Source: Heptranchias perlo
Lineage: Eukaryota
Assembly: GCF_035084215.1 (NCBI RefSeq)
Contig: NC_090340.1
Coordinates: 5,332,001 to 5,396,000, forward strand
Length of the DNA stretch: 64,000 nt
Direction of reading: 5' to 3'
In this document: positions 12,250 through 55,000 of the stretch, in pieces
Numbering within the stretch: the stretch's first letter is position 1
How the letters are laid out: each line of letters begins with the position of its first letter
Notes under the pieces: generated by a model
The model's input: the letters and a program-made list of their open reading frames with translations, nothing else
The model's database searches: none
What the model was told of the DNA's origin: nothing
Program-made: the position numbers and the translations under genes

Positions 12250-12304
12250 ATGCTGAGAAGTAAGGCGGCTCTGTGTCTCTCCGTCTTGTGGATCATTTGC
12301 GCAG
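12250..12304 (+). CDS. IgSF receptor exon 1: signal peptide MLRSKAALCLSVLWIICA
   Basis: ATG at 12250, hydrophobic leader, phase-1 donor G|GTAGCT. Confidence 0.85.
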
Positions 12305-12444: not shown

Positions 12445-12765
12445 TTCCCGCCGATACTTCGATCGAAGTGACTCAACTTCCTGAAAGCGTGAACGCAGTC
12501 AAAGGTACAAACGTGACCTTTCATTGTTCAATTCCCTTCTTTCAAGATAACTCACAGGTGAGCATCGACTGGTGGAAAGAGGGTAAATATGAATACCTGA
12601 GTACATCAGGCGATAACAGAAAAGTGTCCGGTTTCAGTAGCAAATTCAGCGGTTATCTTCAGATTGTCAACGTGAGTTTCTCGGACGCCGGAATATATTA
12701 TTGCGCTGTCAAACATAAGGGAGATACAACTGGAAGCCGAGTTGGATCAAATTTAACTGTATGGG
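12445..12765 (+). CDS. IgSF receptor exon 2: germline-joined V(J)-type domain
   Basis: Acceptor TTTTTATATAG|. VTQLP, NVTFHC, IDWWK, LQIVNVSFSDAGIYYC, J-like GSRVGSNLTVW. Phase-1 donor G|GTAAG. Confidence 0.95.
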
Positions 12766-13664: not shown

Positions 13665-13976
13665 TACCTCCAACTGCATTGAAAACACTCTCCAAAGTAC
13701 CCGGAGGGGGTTCTTCTGCGTCCCTGACCCTCGTGTGCGAAGCGTTTGCATTTTACCCTGGGGTTGTAACGTTCGGCTGGTATAAAGATGGTATCGAAGT
13801 GACAACCGGGATACATGTCATTAAAAACCGAAAATCAGAGGGATTGTATGACGCTTCCAGCTATTTGGAAGAGCCAGACCCTGCTCAGAGCGGGACTATT
13901 TATATCTGTCTGGTTTCTCACATCACCTTGGAGACACCGGCCATTGTTACACACATTGTTACATATTCTGACGCAG
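13665..13976 (+). CDS. IgSF receptor exon 3: C1-set domain
   Basis: LVCEAFAFYP, FGWYKDG, GLYDASSYL, YICLVSH (YxCxVxH); phase 1-1 exon with canonical AG/GT. Confidence 0.95.
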
Positions 13977-15034: not shown

Positions 15035-15144
15035 GCGGTCAAAACTTCATTTATCTGCTGATTTCTGGATGCATAGGGTATGGTCTGATATGTCTACTGT
15101 TCTGTGTCTTAATTTGGATGCGAAGCCAATTCAAGGAGAAGTAA
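15035..15144 (+). CDS. IgSF receptor exon 4: transmembrane segment and short tail, ending at TAA
   Basis: Acceptor CTTTGTAG|; GQNFIYLLISGCIGYGLICLLFCVLIWMRSQFKEK*. Exons 1-4 splice to 798 nt = 265 aa plus stop. Donor GTAAG lies 2 nt after the stop. Confidence 0.85.
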
Positions 15145-15267
15145 TGGTAAGCACCGCCAATTCTGAAAATTTCCATGTTAGATGTTCGATTTTAATACAG
15201 CCGTTCTTGAAACAATAACTTCCGAATGGGTCACGAGTTGCAACTTGTTTGTACCTTAAAAATGCAG

Positions 15268-15384
15268 GAAAGTGCGGCAGCATCAGGACAACAAAAAGGT
15301 TCGTATGACAATTGGCTCCACATCATAGAGTTCAATTAAAGCTCAGATATATTGATGACTATATCGATATTCCCTCTATCTCTT

Positions 15385-15424
<40 letters not shown>

Positions 15425-16275
15425 CAATATACATTCTAATGACTTTAATCACCATCATTAGCGTTCTATGTTTGGCAAGGTAACATTGTTTTATGAATTG
15501 TTGTCAAATCCAAGGAACCGTTCACCACAGCTTCTCGGTTGAGACCTTTTTGATTAATCGAATCGAGCACATTATGATATGACATCAGTCGCGCAGGTAC
15601 TTTACGCAACAGCTAACAGAAAACAATTCAGAATCACTGGCTGGATATTAAGTATCTAATTGTAAACTTTGAAATCTGTTCAGTTCTCGGGGCTCTAAGT
15701 ATAAGATCACAGTGCGATTTTATAGTCAAATTAGAAGATTTAACACTTGCTTTCAACAAAAATTTAATTCGATTCAATGCATCATGCAATCATAGTTTAC
15801 AAAATAGGGGATGCAGAATAGGAAGGTCTTAGAGGTGGGAACAGAGCAATCCAGAATAATGGCGTCCTCTCCGGAAGCGTGTGTCCATTTTGTAGCAAGC
15901 GTTCTTTCACATCTATCTAGTCTTCATATTAATAATATAGTATCACTTCTCATGTGTGGATTGGGAAACTATTGCTTTACTAATAAACATTGGTTAGTGA
16001 GCATCAAGTAAATAGGGTAAAACGTAATTTAAAGTAGGTGTATTTTTTTAGTTCCAAAGAGACACCTGATTGAAGATGTTAAACTTACGAGTTGTGCTTA
16101 ATTTCTATCTGAAGTCATTCCAACCACGATATTAAATTATCTTTCTTCAGGCTGCACAAGGAGCAGCGGAGAAGAAGATTGATTAAGCCGCTCTACATTT
16201 TACTTGCTCGGTGAAATCTGCAATGCATAACTGAAACGACAAGAATAGGCAAAGATACAGATGAAAAAAAAATAA
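15268..16275 (+). pseudogene. Relict cytoplasmic exons (15268-15298 and 16151 onward) with inactivated ITIM/ITSM-like motifs
   Basis: Spliced frame continues WKVRQHQDNKK-AAQGAAEKKID*AALHF; a shifted frame downstream gives E*AKIQMKKK*. Confidence 0.65.
15386..15424. repeat. (TA)n(TG)n microsatellite
   Basis: Read directly from the sequence. Confidence 0.95.
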
Positions 16276-16802
16276 AACCGCTTGAGGGCAGAGATGCACC
16301 GAAAGGAAGCAATTGTTAAATCGTGTTGCAATTGCTGATGCAACAGCTATTTCAACGATAAATATTGCTCGGATCGGCTTTTATCTGGGCCCGGTACGCA
16401 TAGCTGAACATCAGTATTATGCCACAATTTCGTATCATCAGTTTGAGAAGCAGCACATTTTAATATTGGAGAAAATAATCGTAGTTTTCAGCGCACTTAC
16501 GAAGTATGGAAGTTCCCGATCAACGATAAAATTACACAGATTTCATTGTTGAAAAATAGTAGGTCCAATTTAGTTCGCCACTGATACCGCTTTATTTTAA
16601 GTCTGCTGTAAATTTCACTTATTACCGAAAGCTTGCGCTTCAATTGATGAAATAGAAATTAATATTATAATTCATGGAGTTGCAAAGCTACCATTTCAAA
16701 ACAATCCTGGCTTTATCATCACAATAATGAATGCCATTGTTTCAAACCTTGCAGTCAATGATATCATGTTTGGATTCATTTTGTAAGTGTTCATTAACTC
16801 TT

Positions 16803-24587: not shown

Positions 24588-27500
24588 ATTAAGATAGAAA
24601 GTGAAGTCGTTACATCCGAAACTAGGGTCTTAAATCTAAAGAAAGGAAACTACGAAGATATGAGGAGTGAGTTGGCTATGATAGATTTGGAAGCTTCGTT
24701 AAAAGGCATGACGGCAATGGTTAACATTTAAGGATCGAATGCATGAATCGCAACAATACTACATTCCTTTCTGGGGCAAAAACACAAAAGCAAAAGGGGC
24801 TCAACCATGGCCAACAAAAGAAGTTAAGGATAGTATTAGATCCAAAGAAGAGTCACATAAAGTTGCCAGAAAAAGTAGCAAGCCTGAGGATTGGGAGCAG
24901 CTTAGAATTCAGCAAAAAAGGACCAAGAAATTAAGTGGCCAAAAATACAGTATGAGAGTAAACTTGCAAGGAACATAAACGTGGACTATAAAAACTTCTA
25001 CAAGTATGTAAAAATAAATAGATTAGTGAAGACAAATGTAGGTCCCTTACAGTTAGAAACTGGAGAATTTATAATGCGGAACAAGGAAGTGGCAGAGCAA
25101 TTAAATAAATACTTTGGTTCTGTCTTCACGGAAGAGAACGCAAAACGCTTCCCAAAAATGCTGGAAACCAAGGGACTAGTGAGAAGGAGGAATTTAAGGA
25201 AATTAGTATTCGTAAAAAAATAGTGCTGGAGAAATTAATGGGACTGAAAGCCGATAAATCCACAGGGCCTGATAATCTGCATCCCAGAGGACGAAAATTT
25301 CCAAATGGCCTTGAAGCCACTTTACATCCTCCTTACAATTCACGATCCCACCTAGTTTTGTGTCGTCGGCAAATTTGAAAAATATTATATTTGGTTCCCT
25401 CATCCAAATCATTGATATATTTTGTGAATAGCTGGGGTCCAAGCATTGATCCCTGCGGCACCCCACTTGTCACTGCCTGCCACCTTGAAAAAGACCGCAT
25501 TATTTTACTCCCTGTTTCCTGTCTGTTAACCAATTTTCAACCAATGCCAGTATGTTATCACCAATCCCATGTGCTTTAAGTTTGCACACTAACCTCTTAT
25601 GTGGGACTTTATCAAAGACCTTCTTAAAATCCAAATAAACCATATCCACCTGTTCTCATAGAGTCATAGAGTCATACAGCACGGATAGAGGCCCTTCGGC
25701 CCATCGTGTCCGCGCCGGCCATCAATCCCTCTCCACTCTAATCCCATATTCCAGCATTTGGTCCGTAGCCTTGTATGCTATGGCATTTCAAGTGCTCATC
25801 CAAATGCTTCTTGAATGTTGTGAGGGTTCCTGCCTCCACAACCCTTTCAGGCAGTGAGTTCCAGACTCCAACCACCCTCTGGGTGAAAAAGTTCTTTCTC
25901 AAATCCCCTCTAAACCTCCCGCCTTTTACCTTGAATCTATGTCCCCTTGTTATAGAACCCTCAACGAAGGGAAAAAGCTTCTTAGTATCTATCCTATCTG
26001 TGCCCCTCATAATTTTGTACACTTCAATCATGTCCCCCCTCAGCCTCCTCTGCTCCAAGGAAAACAAACCCAATCTTCCCAGTCTCTCTTCATAGCTGAA
26101 GCGCTCCAGCCCTGGTAACATCCTGGTGAATCTCCTCTGCACCCTCTCCAAAGCGATCACATCCTTCCTGTAGTGTGGCGACCAGAACTGCACACAGTAC
26201 TCCAGCTGTGGCCTAACCAGTGTTTTATACAGCTCCATCATAACCTCCTTGCCCTTATATTCTATGCCTCGGCTAATAAAGGCAAGTATCCCATATGCCT
26301 TCTTTACCACCTTATCTACCTGTTCCGCCGCCTTCAGGGATCTGTGAACTTGCACACCAAGATCCCTCTGACCCTCTGTCTTGCCTAGGGTCCTCCCATT
26401 CATTGTGTATTCCCTTGCCTTGTTAGTCCCTCCAAAGTGCATCACCTCGCACTTTTCCGGGTTAAATTCCATTTGCCACTGTTCTGCCCATCTGACCAAC
26501 CCATCTATATCGTCCTGCAGACTGAGGCTATCCTCCTCGCTATTTACCACCCTACCAATTTTTGTATCATCAGCGAACTTACTGATCATACCTTTTACAT
26601 TCATATCCAAGTCATTAATGTAGACCACAAACAGCAAGGGACCCAGCACCGATCCCTGTGGTACCCCACTGGCCACAGGCTGCCAGTCACAAAAACAACC
26701 TTCGACCATCACCCTCTGCCTTCTGCCACTAAGCCAGTTTTGTATCCAAAGTGCCAAGGCACCCTGGATTCCATGGGCTCGTACCTTCTTGACCAGTCTC
26801 CTGTGGGGGACTTTATCGAAGGCCTTACTGAAATCCATGTCTACCACATCCACTGCGTTACCCTCATCCAAACGCCTAGTCACCCCCTCAAAAAATTCAA
26901 TCAAATTAGTCAGACATGATCTTCTCTTGACAACGCCATGTTTACTATCCCTGATTAATCCTTGCTTCTCCAAGTGGAGACTAATTTTGTCCTTCAGAAT
27001 TTTTTCCAATAATTTTCCTACCACTGATGTTAGGCTCACTGGCCTGTAGTTCCCCGGTTTTTCCCTACTCCCCTTCTTGAATAATGGTACTACATTAGCG
27101 GTTCTCCAGTCCTCTGGCACATCCCCTGTGGCCAGAGAGGTTCTGAATATATGTGTTAGAGCCCCCGCAATCTCCTCCTTTCTCTCTTATCTTTTCAACC
27201 GGTTACATCCTCAAAAACTCCTGTAGGTTTGACAAACATGATTTCCCTTTCATAAATCCATGTTGACTTTGTCTAAACTCATTGATATTTTCTAAGCGCC
27301 CTGTTGTCTCATGCTTTATAATAAACTCTAGCATTTTCCCTACTACTGATATAGTAGGCAAACCGTTCTGTAGTTCCCCATTTTCTCTCTCCCTCCTCGT
27401 TTAAATAGTGTGGTTACATTTGCCACCCTCCAATCTGCAGGAACTGTTCCATAATCAATAGAATTTTGGAAGATGATAAACAATGCATCCATTATTTCCA

Positions 27501-50850: not shown

Positions 50851-52080
50851 TGGCCTAGCCCAACTGACCTTGTATGGCCCCAGTCTGAGCACCGCTGAGT
50901 AATTCAGTTACGAGATGTCACAGACTCCTACAGCGTAGGACTCAACGCCAGTGGCCATCGTGGTGATCACGCACTCCATGATAAAATGCACAGGGTCGAT
51001 GCTATGCTTGCAAACCCCTCACAATTTGATAGTGATAACCACATAATGTAATTTAGAAAAAACAACGTTTCCAAATATAATGGACGTGCAGCTGAGACCC
51101 ATCATCTGCAATTACTGCGCCATGTGGGAACTCCAGGATGCTCAATGTGTCCTGGAGAGCCACATGTGAAGAAAATGCCTCCAGTTGCTAGAACTCAAGC
51201 TGAGGTTTTCTGAGTTTAAGGGTCAGCTGGAGTGACTGCAGAGCATAAGGGAGTTTGAAGGTTTCCTGGATCGTATGTTCCAAGAGGTGGCCACGCCACA
51301 GCCATAAAAAGTTAAGGATAACAAGTAGGTGGCCATTCGAAAAGGTAGGTAGAGTCAGGCAGTGCAGGAATGTTCTGGGTGTGTGCCACTCTCAAACCGG
51401 TATTCAGCATTGAATACCAGTGAGGGTGACGACACCTCGAAGGAGTGCAGTCCTGAGCATAGCACCATGGGGCAGAGGATTGCACAGGGGCGCACAGTGC
51501 ATTATGGAAATGGAGTAATCATTTGGGATTCGATAGTCAGCGGACAGATAGGCGTTTCTGTGACCGTCGACGTGAGTCCCGCGTTATATGTTGCCTCCAT
51601 GGTGCTAGGGTAAAGGACATTATGAAGAAGGTGCAGAACATTCTGTGAGGTGAAAGGGAACAGCCAGATGTTGTGGTACATGTGGGTACGAATGACATAG
51701 AAAATAAAAGGGATGAGGTCCTGCAGTCAGAGTGTCAGGAGCTAGGAAGGAATTTAAAAAGCATGATCTAAACTCAGTAATCTCTACATTACTCCTAGTG
51801 CCACGGCTAGTGAATAAGAAGTATAAAGATACGGCAGGTGAACGCATGGCTAGAGACCTGGTGCAAGAGGGAGGGCTTGGGATTCTTGGGTCATGGGGAA
51901 CAGTTCTGGGGCAGGAGGGTCTTGTTCAAGACGGGCAGGTTACACCTCAACAGAGTTGGGACCAATGTTCTCGTGGGGAGGTTCATTAGTGCTGTGGGGA
52001 GAAGTTAAGCGAATTTAGCAGGGGGATGCGCACCAAGATGTAGCATTAGAAAGGAGAACCAAGGTGCACAAAGCATTGGG

Positions 52081-55000
52081 AACATAGGAACAGGAGTAGG
52101 TCATTCAGCCCCTCGAGCCTGCTCCGCCATTTGATAAGATCATGGCTGATCTGTGATCTAACTACATGTACCTGCCTTTGGCCCAATCCCTGAATTACTT
52201 TGGTTGGCAAAAAGCTATCTATCTCAGATTTAAAATGAACAATTGAGCTAGCATCAATTGCAGTTTGCGGAAGAGAGTTCCAAACTTCTACCACCCTTTG
52301 TGTGTACAAATGTTTTCTAATATCACTGCTGAAAGGTCTGGCTCTAATTTTTAGACTGTGCCCCCAACTCCGAGAATCCCCAATCAGCGGAAATAGTTTC
52401 TCTCTATCCAAGATGACTTTCCAAAGGTGCGGTGCCCAGAACTGCTCACAGTACTCCAGGTGCGGTCTCAACCGGTTTTTGTATAGCTGCAGCATAACTT
52501 CAGCCCCCTTGTACTCTAGCCCTCTAGGTATAAAGACCAGCATTTCATTAAGCTTATTGAATATTTTCTTCAATGATCTATGTACCTGAACCCTTAAGTC
52601 CCTTGGGACATCCATTGTTTTTAACCTTTTACCATTTAGATAGTACCCTGTTCTATCCTTTATTGGTCCGAAGTGGATGAACTCACATTTCCCTACATTG
52701 AATTCCATTTGCCACAATTTTGCCCGTTCACCTAATCTATCAATATCCCTTTGTAATTTTATGTTTTCATCTACACAGCTTACAATGCCACCAATCTTTG
52801 TGTCATCGGCAAACTTAGATATGAGACTTTCTATGCCTTCATCTAAGTCGTTAATAAATATTGTGAATAATTGAGGTCCCAAGACAGATCCCTGCGGGGC
52901 TCCATTAGTCACATCCTGCCAATATGAGTAACTACACATTATCCCTACTCTCTGTTGCCTTTCGCTCAGCCAACTTCCTAACCAAGTCCATACTTTCCCC
53001 TCGATTCCATGGGCTTCAATCCGAGGTAACAACCTCTTAAGTAGGACTTTATCAAATGCCTTCTGGAAGTCCATACAAATAATATCCATTGACATTTTCC
53101 TGTCCGCTAATTTAGTCACCTCTTCAAAAAATTCAAACAGGTTTGACAGGCACGACCTCCCTTTCACAAATCCATGCTAGCTTTCTCTGATTAACTATCC
53201 TTAATTATAACTATCCTTAATCACCCTATCCTTAATTATAGACTCCAGCATTTTCCCCACAACAGATGTTAGGCTAACTGGTCTACAATTCCCTGGTTTC
53301 CCTCTCTCTCCTTTCTTAAAAAGTGGAGTGACATGTGCAATTTTCCAATCTAGAGGGAGAAGGATAGGTCTGGCCCAAAAGTTAAAATTCTAAATTGGGG
53401 AAAGGCCAATTTTGATGGTATTAGACAGGAACTTTCAGAAGTTGATTGGGAGAGTCTGTTGGCAGGCAAAGGGACGTCTGGTAAGTGGGAGTCCTTCAAA
53501 AATGTGTTAACCGGGGTTCAGGGTAAGCACATTCCTTATAAAGTAAAGGGCAAGGCTGGTAGAAGTAGGGAACCTTGGATGACTCGGGAGATTGAGGCCC
53601 TAGTCAGAAAGAAGAAGGAGGCATATGACATGCATAGTCAGCTTGGATCAAGTGGATCCCTTGAAGAGTATAGAGATTGCCGGAGTAGAGTTAAGAGAGA
53701 AATCAGGAGGGCAAAAAGGGGACATGAGATTGCTTTGGCAGATAAGGCAAAGGTGAATCCAAAGAGCTTCTACAAATACATCAAGGGCAAAAGAGTAACT
53801 AGGGAGAAATTAGGGCCTCTGAAGGATCAACAAGGTCATCTATGTGCGGAACCACAAGAGATGGGTGAGATCCTAAATGAATATTTCGCATCGGTATTTA
53901 CGGTTGAGAAAGGCATGGATGTTAGGGAACTTGGGGAAATAAATAGTGATGTCTTGAGGAGTGTATATATTACAGAGAGGGAGGTGCTGGAAGTCTTAAA
54001 GCGCATCAACGTAGATAAATCTCCGGGACCTGATGAAATGTATCCCAGGACGTTATGGGAGGTTAGGGAGGATTTCCGGCAAGCTATCCTCTTTTTCTCT
54101 AAATACTGACGCAAAGTAATTATTCAATATGTCCGCCATTTCCCCATTGTCAATGACAATATCCTCACTTCCAGTTTTTAAGGGGCCAACACTGCTCCAA
54201 ACCACCCTCATTTTCCTAATATAACTATAAATGTTCTTGGCATTGCGTTTGCTATACCTTGCGATTTTATTTTCATACTCTCTTTTTGGAGATCTTACTA
54301 TCTGTTTTGTGACCCTTTGTTGATCTTTGTATCTTTCCCATTCGCCAGGATCTGTGGCATTTTTTCCCTTTTTGTGTGCCCTTTCCTTTTGTCTTATACT
54401 GCCCCTTACCTCTTTAGTTGCCCTGGCTGTTTTTCTTTGCAAGTTGAGTTCTTTCCCCTCAGGGGTATAAACCGGTTCGGTATCACGTTGAATGTTTAAT
54501 TAATCATTTCCCACTGACCATCGGTCGTTTTACCCATTAACAGATTTGCTCAGTTTACTGTGAACAGTCTCTGTCTCTGTCTCATCCCAGTGAAGTCGAT
54601 CTTACCCAAGTCTAGAATCTTAGCAAATGTTTCATATTTTTCCCATTCAAACACTACCATGAACTCGATCATTTTATGACACGCTATTGGCTCGATGTTC
54701 ACGCGCAGTTAAGCTGTGAACTGAATTGGGTTGATTAATGATTACTAAATCTCGGATGGCTTGCCCCCTTGTTCCCCTAGGAAATAATGCTGTCAAAAAC
54801 TATCCCGGAGACACTCAATAAATTCACTACCTTTCTGACAGTTGCTACTTTGCTTTTCCCAATCTATGTGAAGGTTAAAGTCTCCCATTAAGACCACTAT
54901 GCCTTTCTTACATGCTTGTCTAATCTCTGCACTGAAACAATCTAGCACATCAGAGCTGCTGCCAGTGGGTCCTATACGCAACACCCACTATAGTCTTAGG

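What the first reader, a model, noticed from the sequence alone, without database searches (positions are those of the whole stretch)
15142..16275. Inhibitory tail disarmed: stop codons sit on both signalling tyrosines
Seen: splicing 15146 to 15268 and 15298 to 16151 keeps the frame, giving ...FKEK*WKVRQHQDNKKAAQGAAEKKID*AALHF. The TAA at 16184-16186 occupies the Y of an ITIM, I-D-Y-A-A-L. Further on, in a shifted frame, GAA TAG GCA AAG ATA CAG ATG AAA AAA AAA TAA reads E*AKIQMKKK*. Its TAG (16246-16248) occupies the Y of an ITSM-like (T)EYAKI, as in SIRP-alpha and PD-1 tails. Each is one base from TAY. The ectodomain and TM remain intact. Inference: an ITIM+ITSM inhibitory receptor converted into a tailless decoy or adhesion form, analogous to SIRP-gamma. 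If only the 31-nt exon intervenes, the last junction is 33 nt past the first stop and the mRNA would be expected to escape NMD.
Basis: partly seen in the sequence, partly recalled or inferred. Interest (0 to 1): 0.7.

Follow-up and report, generated by a model that had tools for sequence, protein, structure and literature searches.

The report
Ancient tailless shark immune receptor
A shark antibody-like surface receptor gene stops right after its membrane segment, as do its database counterparts in three other shark genera, and the stop codons on its signalling tyrosines lie in a decayed last exon beyond that stop, so it is likely a long-kept non-signalling (decoy or adhesion) member of a large inhibitory receptor family rather than a receptor switched off at its tyrosines.

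Summary
The stops are real. TAA 16184 and TAG 16246 align to the two tyrosines that open-tailed paralogues carry, and they are in DNA and spliced contigs. They are not what removes the tail. Translation ends at TAA 15142, inside the transmembrane exon, which is one base longer than in 19 of 20 other paralogues. Orthologous database proteins from three other shark genera end at the same column and form one clade (100/99). Spliced contigs join the TM exon straight to the last exon. The last exon is decayed 3'UTR: a third in-frame stop, a 7-nt deletion, and 10 of 36 conserved sites changed. Two Tyr-to-stop changes would arise by neutral decay in about 0.1-4% of such exons, which is mildly odd but not proof of targeting. 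Verdict: an expressed, ancient, tailless V-C1-TM member of a large SIRP-like shark receptor family. The SIRP-gamma analogy holds for architecture only.

The parts
12250..12304 (+). Leader (signal peptide) exon, 55 nt
   Evidence: identical to the N-terminus of P0001; a 9-nt loose end before 12443 in X5/X6 matches this exon's end
12445..12765 (+). V-set Ig exon (single exon; J-like last strand, degenerate in this clade)
   Evidence: Pfam V-set E 2.7e-11; joint to 13665 in X5, X6; records 10/18 show 1 difference where L024 would give 22
13665..13976 (+). C1-set Ig exon
   Evidence: Pfam C1-set E 7.1e-10; joint to 15035 in X5, X6 (the contigs listed there carry paralogue letters)
15035..15146 (+). 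Transmembrane exon, 112 nt (3n+1); uncharged TM followed by an 8-residue tail
   Evidence: 19 of 20 other paralogue TM exons are 111/114/117 nt
15142..15144 (+). Actual stop codon TAA, likely created by a one-base insertion at the exon end; ends the 265-aa protein
   Evidence: same end column in P0015, P0002, P0016, P0017
15264..15302 (+).
   Evidence: Best profile match in the intron at 15264-15287; 1 of 150 shuffles reach it (0 of 150 for L024); nhmmer alone gave no hit here in the window and only E 0.15 in L024; joint 15146->16151
16151..16384 (+). Last exon: decayed ITIM/ITSM-like exon, now 3'UTR
   Evidence: nhmmer against the family's final-exon profile, E 7.7e-12; spliced to the TM exon, record 23 with 0 differences where L024 would give 11
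16184..16186 (+). TAA on the ITIM tyrosine column; shared with L024/L025
16232..16234 (+).
16246..16248 (+). TAG on the second (ITSM-like) tyrosine column, beside a 7-nt deletion and out of frame with the ITIM

Best explanation
The gene is transcribed and spliced, and it encodes a 265-residue V-C1-transmembrane protein that ends eight residues after the membrane; it likely lost its inhibitory tail before the squalomorph-galeomorph shark split and has likely served since as a non-signalling ligand-binding (decoy, adhesion or accessory) member of its family. Shown: the stop lies inside the TM exon; that exon is one base longer than in open paralogues; spliced contigs join it to the last exon 2 nt after the stop; the last exon is homologous to the family's ITIM/ITSM-like exon and carries three stops and a 7-nt deletion; database orthologues end at the same column. 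Inferred: a one-base insertion made the stop; the message escapes NMD (50-55 nt rule, recalled); the exon was kept as terminal exon/3'UTR while its coding sequence decayed; the Tyr stops are part of that decay, helped by TAY being one step from a stop and by TAC-GCN forming a CpG. Untested: protein expression, ligand and cellular role.
For: Stop position and frames. TM exon 112 nt versus 3n in 19 of 20 paralogues. Spliced joints occur only in the RNA-type runs, with contigs matching this copy rather than L024. Clade of window + L024/L025 + Heterodontus + Mustelus + two Scyliorhinus proteins has support 100/99, sister to 10 rows that include the ITIM-bearing P0018/P0025; same end column. Decay signs: 10 of 36 conserved sites changed versus 0-23% in 17 other copies; TGA on a non-Tyr codon and a 7-nt deletion; third Tyr aligns loosely to CAC; 209-nt deletion in L024/L025 and a 13-nt deletion form in X7; relic of the 44-nt exon without its acceptor. 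An independent tail-loss clade (L042, L043, g14610, g15331) has relic exons whose aligned stops fall on Lys, Gln and Asn codons.
Against: Two Tyr-to-stop changes have only a 0.1-4% chance under simple decay (0.4-8% for any two of three Tyr). In the control clade 0 of 14 aligned Tyr codons became stops, and 1 of 2 unaligned ones probably did, so this gene's pattern is not typical. The last exon differs from L024 at only 2 of 72 nt versus 6-9% in introns. dN/dS against L024 is 0.76 (V about 1.0; 12 synonymous and 31 non-synonymous changes), which does not show purifying selection. The two S. torazame models run past the stop column. All runs come from one sample and RNA status is the tool's guess. 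Orthologues were seen only as predicted proteins.
Confidence: 0.74

Rival explanations
1. Stepwise, selected disarming: nonsense changes on the tyrosines came first (second Tyr, then the ITIM Tyr), each giving a shorter, less inhibitory receptor, and the TM-exon frameshift only finished the job. The Tyr stops would be fossils of adaptive intermediates, as in short-tailed KIR.
For: Low chance of two Tyr stops under decay. The ITIM Tyr column is also hit in other copies: TAG in L066/L067, GAC in L065, AAC in L037. Precedent: a stop within the membrane-proximal ITIM in ancestral short-tailed KIR (PMC2213150, passages).
Against: Any upstream nonsense change would do the same job, so Tyr codons are not special targets (inference). 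The second stop sits beside a 7-nt deletion that blurs its homology. L067's locus lacks C1 and TM exons and L066's tail module lies 24 kb from the nearest TM exon, so both look like orphans. A non-Tyr TGA lies between the two stops.
Confidence: 0.13
2. The gene is a transcribed, slowly decaying pseudogene: the tail loss was the first hit and the ectodomain is drifting.
For: dN/dS 0.76 versus L024; many family copies are broken.
Against: The frame is open over 265 codons here and over 260-261 in three other genera at 55-69% identity, while the tail exons collected stops and indels over the same time.
Confidence: 0.07
3. The protein is an activating or adaptor-coupled receptor, or one chain of a heterodimer, that signals through a partner in the membrane; clade-specific TM Tyr/Cys residues and the altered last V strand would serve the pairing.
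For: The clade replaces the family's Gly-rich TM stretch with C-I-G-(Y/C)-x-L-I/L-C-L-L and changes the family's N-G-T-G-S strand.
Against: No K, R, D, E or H in the TM core of any of 6 clade proteins; paired activating receptors use a charged TM residue (PMC2213150, PMC3716694 passages). The family has a separate clade with a TM Arg.
Confidence: 0.05
4. The stops are assembly errors.
For: An A-run at 16264-16272 is error-prone (sequence).
Against: The same letters are in DNA and RNA-type contigs, the paralogues share two of the stops, and other sharks end at the same column.
Confidence: 0.01

Closest known systems
SIRP-gamma (SIRP paired-receptor family)
   Same: Clustered Ig-superfamily family with ITIM-bearing members. 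This member has a very short tail and no charged TM residue; SIRP-gamma is described as non-signalling and adhesion-promoting (PMC3716694, passages). Database names of relatives are SIRP-like.
   Different: V + one C1 rather than three Ig domains; no evidence of CD47 binding or SIRP orthology; the fossil ITIM exon is still the gene's last exon.
Short-tailed KIR / activating Ly49 derived from inhibitory homologues (Abi-Rached and Parham 2005, PMC2213150)
   Same: A signalling-domain switch from an ITIM-bearing ancestor by a premature stop or frameshift, recurring within a multigene family (passages).
   Different: No charged TM residue gained; the terminating stop is in the TM exon, not in the ITIM; the clade spans several shark orders rather than being recent.
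Non-rearranging VJ-C1 genes (UrIg, UrIg2, NKp30, PRARP; PMC10751288, PMC12227049)
   Same: Unsplit V exon followed by C1; UrIg2 is the second-best PDB sequence hit (E 3.3e-18).
   Different: One C1 and a tyrosine-motif tail in relatives; about 100 V-exon matches in tandem clusters; linkage to MHC or antigen-receptor loci not tested.
B7-H6 (NCR3LG1) and other V+C1 surface proteins (B7 family, butyrophilins)
   Same: V-C1-TM layout; B7-H6 is among tied structural matches (Z 14.7, rmsd 5.6, 193 aligned; top Z 15.3); some relatives are named NCR3LG1-like.
   Different: Identity about 22%; open relatives carry ITIM/ITSM-like tails; orthology not tested.

Membership tests
SIRP family | Three extracellular Ig-like domains | tested here: not met
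   One V and one C1 exon before the TM; definition from PMC3716694 passages
SIRP family | Clustered genes with similar ectodomains and both inhibitory and activating members | tested here: inconclusive
   100 V matches, 99 on one contig; ITIM-bearing copies; a TM-Arg clade with decayed tail exons is a candidate activating group only
SIRP family | CD47 binding (alpha, gamma) | not testable with these tools
   No binding data
SIRP family | Orthology or synteny with tetrapod SIRP | not tested
   No SIRP among the 60 best PDB sequence hits shown or the 50 structural rows shown; this absence is inconclusive
SIRP-gamma-like architecture (works-like claim) | Very short tail without tyrosine motifs | tested here: met
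   8-residue tail without Tyr in 5 of 6 clade proteins; the S. torazame model P0003 is longer
SIRP-gamma-like architecture (works-like claim) | No charged TM residue | tested here: met
   0 of 6 clade proteins have one
Short-tailed activating paired receptor (KIR-S type) | Positively charged TM residue for adaptor binding | tested here: not met
   definition from PMC2213150 passages
Short-tailed activating paired receptor (KIR-S type) | Translation ends at a stop within the ITIM | tested here: not met
   Translation ends at 15142 in the TM exon; the ITIM stop is downstream and out of frame in the splice form seen
ITIM/ITSM inhibitory receptor (open paralogues) | ITIM and ITSM-like motifs in a translated tail (consensus patterns recalled) | tested here: met
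   For paralogues only: L-T-Y-A-A/T-L, and T-E/D-Y-A-x-L/V/I 23 codons later. Not met for the window gene
Non-rearranging VJ-C1 genes | Single V exon with a J-like G strand, followed by C1 | tested here: inconclusive
   Single V exon and C1 are present; the family has G-N-G-T-G-S but this clade has changed it
Non-rearranging VJ-C1 genes | Linkage to MHC or antigen-receptor paralogous regions | not tested
   Flanking genes of the clusters were not examined
B7-H6 / B7 family | Orthology and structural closeness to B7-H6 | tested here: inconclusive
   Tied with antibody chains, PD-L1/PD-L2 and butyrophilins within 1-2 Z

The most novel reading that the evidence does not exclude
Cartilaginous fish have a large, apparently undescribed SIRP-like paired-receptor family with all three signalling classes (ITIM-bearing, TM-arginine activating, tailless). 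This gene is its conserved SIRP-gamma analogue, and its last exon preserves a fossil record of stepwise, selected silencing in which each tyrosine codon was turned into a stop before the whole tail was cut off.
Probability: 0.12. Interest if true: 0.62.

Novelty: new member of a known kind. Interest (0 to 1): 0.33.

Why it matters
Turning an inhibitory receptor into a non-inhibitory one by truncation is a known theme (KIR, Ly49, SIRP), so the event is ordinary in kind. What is useful: (1) A tailless member has been kept across distant shark lineages inside a fast birth-and-death family, which marks it as the member most likely to have a fixed job and ligand. (2) Its mRNA still ends on the fossil ITIM exon, so the order of lesions can be read from other shark genomes. 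(3) The family (100 V-exon matches; inhibitory, candidate activating and tailless clades) did not turn up as a described family in the listings of my six searches aimed at it. The library lacks most subscription papers, so this is not proof that it is undescribed.

Tried and rejected
Assembly error: rejected. The 31-nt exon as a used exon: the spliced contigs join across it; contigs drop rare forms, so minor inclusion is not excluded. Stop read-through restoring the ITIM: in the splice form seen the last exon is in another frame. My first idea that TAG 16246 is only a by-product of the 7-nt deletion: not upheld overall, since the best gap placement keeps it on the Tyr column, but it is a near tie for two copies. 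Allelic variation in V and C1 from 'other letters' in RNA contigs: the 8 positions checked match paralogue L024. A relic of the penultimate Tyr-bearing exon in the intron: none found, only a cross-match to the last exon. nhmmer for the 44-nt exon gave no hit in the window and only E 0.15 in L024; the relic rests on the profile-and-shuffle test, whose shuffles were simple dinucleotide-block shuffles. Dating the decay with the epaulette-shark mutation rate: dropped, because the rate is per generation (PMC10587355, passages). Structure prediction (pLDDT 76.5) and fold searches gave generic V+C matches and could not assign a family; NCBIfam gave 0 families for 3 proteins. No RNA holder is on record as RNA; X5-X7 are guesses, supported only by their GT..AG joints. 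No RNA-type cover beyond about 16488 is not used as evidence. No ray or chimaera member of the tailless clade was seen, but the word-based searches and 50% clustering could hide one. Three look-ups of earlier findings returned nothing. No supplements were read; those of PMC12227049 and PMC10751288 might list this family.

Full report
What is there. The window holds one Ig-superfamily gene on the + strand: leader 12250-12304, V exon 12445-12765 (Pfam V-set, E 2.7e-11), C1 exon 13665-13976 (C1-set, E 7.1e-10), TM exon 15035-15146 and a last exon from 16151. No second family gene was found in the window. The spliced frame ends at TAA 15142-15144, inside the TM exon, giving 265 residues. This is identical to database protein P0001, which its source labels as from a sevengill shark (Heptranchias). 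The V exon has 100 matches in the own genome (150 of 154 candidates scored), 99 of them on one contig in two clusters.

All three stops are at the stated places and the proposed splice gives the quoted peptide. I examined 37 of the 41 matches to an open last exon plus the window and L024. The first tyrosine column could be placed in 33 of these 39 rows. Of the 31 rows outside the window's clade, 22 have TAC, 5 TAT, 2 TAG, 1 GAC and 1 AAC. In open copies a second tyrosine follows 23 codons (69 nt) later. In the window the two stops are 62 nt apart, so 7 nt are missing. Sliding that gap against 17 non-redundant copies, the best placement leaves TAG 16246 on the second tyrosine (186 mismatches in total, versus 207 for the best placement that does not). 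For g5191 and g3622 the difference is at most one mismatch. A profile of the family's last exon finds 16118-16384 at E 7.7e-12 and makes the same placement. So the homology claim holds, firmly for the first tyrosine and moderately for the second. The stops are not assembly errors: a DNA-run contig matches 16175-16462 exactly, RNA-type contigs carry them (one sample, possibly the assembly's own), and the near-identical pair L024/L025 shares the first two stops.

First, the splice. The runs guessed to be RNA (X5-X7) show GT..AG joints V-C1 and C1-TM (X5, X6) and TM-last exon (all three), which the DNA run lacks. The last of these goes straight from 15146 to 16151. Record 23 has 0 differences across it, where L024 would differ at 11 positions, so it comes from this gene. 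The '31-nt exon' is skipped, and the last junction lies 2 nt after the stop, well inside the 50-55 nt NMD limit (rule recalled). In that splice form the last exon is in another frame. Second, the kept frame is a coincidence. Of 20 other paralogue TM exons, 19 are 111, 114 or 117 nt and end in phase 1; the twentieth has its own break. The window and L024 have 112 nt, and the extra base sits where the family's Asn-Lys codons now read as TAA. The family's next exon is 44 nt in all 14 copies cut out (one has a dead donor). Third, full family tails have four or five tyrosines on two exons (P0019, P0036), and no relic of the penultimate exon was found here. Fourth, the last exon has other lesions: an in-frame TGA at 16232-16234 on a non-tyrosine column, the 7-nt deletion, and a third tyrosine aligning loosely to CAC. 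It differs at 10 of 36 well-conserved sites, against 0-23% for the other 17 copies. L024/L025 have lost 209 nt including the second motif, and X7 holds a form lacking 13 nt from 16222.

Age. Database proteins from Heterodontus (P0002), Mustelus (P0016) and Scyliorhinus canicula (P0017) end at the same alignment column as P0001 and P0015. The two S. torazame models run on by 2 and 29 residues; one ends His-Trp-stop, which is what the window's shifted frame would give through the donor (inference). In a maximum-likelihood tree of 42 V+C1 rows, these proteins form one clade with the window and L024/L025 (support 100/99). The three own-genome rows are sister to (Heterodontus, (Mustelus, Scyliorhinus)), and the clade is sister (98/98) to 10 rows that include the ITIM-bearing P0018 and P0025 (midpoint root, no clade test run). 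The loss therefore likely predates the squalomorph-galeomorph split (over 200 million years; recalled, no call). The orthologues were seen only as predicted proteins.

Are two tyrosine stops more than chance? A simple decay model (17% or 28% change per site, transversion share 0.33-0.8, with or without a two-fold CpG effect) gives 0.13-4.0% for both, and 0.4-7.8% for any two of three. TAY is one step from a stop, 29 of 31 first tyrosines are followed by G (a CpG after TAC), and 8 of the 10 observed changes are transversions, which favours the upper range. Gap freedom and selection after the fact raise the chance further. Against decay: a second, independent tail-loss clade (L042, L043, g14610, g15331; related copies, 17-32% diverged from open exons) kept Tyr at 9 of 16 codons, changed 5 to Phe, His or Leu, and had 2 unaligned, one of them probably a stop. 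Its aligned stops fell on Lys, Gln and Asn codons. This shows that relic tails collect stops off tyrosines, but also that the window's two are unusual. The other ITIM stops (L066, L067) are in loci that look like orphans or pseudogenes. The first 72 nt of the last exon differ from L024 at only 2 sites versus 6-9% in introns, a weak hint of constraint as 3'UTR. I leave about 13% for stepwise selected truncation.

How it most likely works. Shown: a spliced transcript encoding a V-C1-TM frame with an 8-residue Tyr-free tail and no charged TM residue in any of 6 clade proteins. Inferred: a surface protein that can bind a ligand but cannot recruit phosphatases or a conventional ITAM adaptor, acting as a competitor, adhesion or accessory molecule beside its inhibitory sisters. 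Its retention in four genera argues for function. dN/dS against L024 (0.76; 12 synonymous and 31 non-synonymous changes) does not prove it. Clade-specific changes in the TM and in the last V strand leave a partner-chain role open.

Comparison with what is known. SIRP-gamma is described as non-signalling and adhesion-promoting within a three-Ig-domain paired family (PMC3716694, passages). The analogy fits the architecture, but membership fails on domain number and CD47 binding is untested. Short-tailed KIR arose by a stop within the membrane-proximal ITIM plus a charged TM residue (PMC2213150, passages); here neither defines the protein. Non-rearranging VJ-C1 genes such as UrIg and UrIg2 are known in sharks (PMC10751288 and PMC12227049, passages); my term look-ups found no 'ITIM' or 'SIRP' in their main texts. 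PMC13262535 (passages) did not bear on this family. Sequence and fold searches gave antibody chains, UrIg2, B7-family and butyrophilin matches without a clear winner. Six literature searches aimed at the family (listings only) showed no description of it; subscription papers and supplements were not seen.

Verdict. The tail was cut at the TM exon long ago, and the tyrosine stops lie in a decayed untranslated exon. [quoted passage not shown] Interest 0.33.

Noticed in passing
L042, L043 and the loci g14610 (L098), g15331 (L099): A clade with an arginine in or just before the TM segment, shortened 44-nt-type exons and decayed tyrosine exons: candidate activating members from a second, independent tail loss.
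   Followed up: partly
L066, L067, L065, L037 (last exons): The ITIM tyrosine is lost in other copies too (TAG, TAG, GAC, AAC); L065's gene looks otherwise intact.
   Followed up: partly
L024 and L025 (G000:C18 about 3.77 and 4.57 Mb): Two copies 800 kb apart differ at 3 of 4394 aligned bases, and many V matches repeat at the same offset: a very recent segmental duplication or an assembly duplication.
   Followed up: no
window 16222-16234: A 13-nt deletion form in one RNA-type contig of X7, not in the DNA contig laid; it removes the in-frame TGA. Probably a second allele.
   Followed up: no
   Followed up: no
L081 (G000:C1:162303220-162303740) and L082 (G000:C15:44302320-44302810): Copies of the family's last exon with flanks on other contigs, outside the clusters.
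   Followed up: no
g2958 (L034, TM exon): Another paralogue with a frameshifted TM exon end (116 nt) and a stop before the donor.
   Followed up: no
window 12730-12765 (end of V exon): The family's G-N-G-T-G-S J-like strand is altered in all 6 proteins of the tailless clade aligned, which may change V-V pairing.
   Followed up: no
window 25738-27186, 52046-53176 and much of 18000-64000: Long ORFs that look like LINE reverse transcriptases (recognised from memory, not searched); one is open for 482 codons.
   Followed up: no
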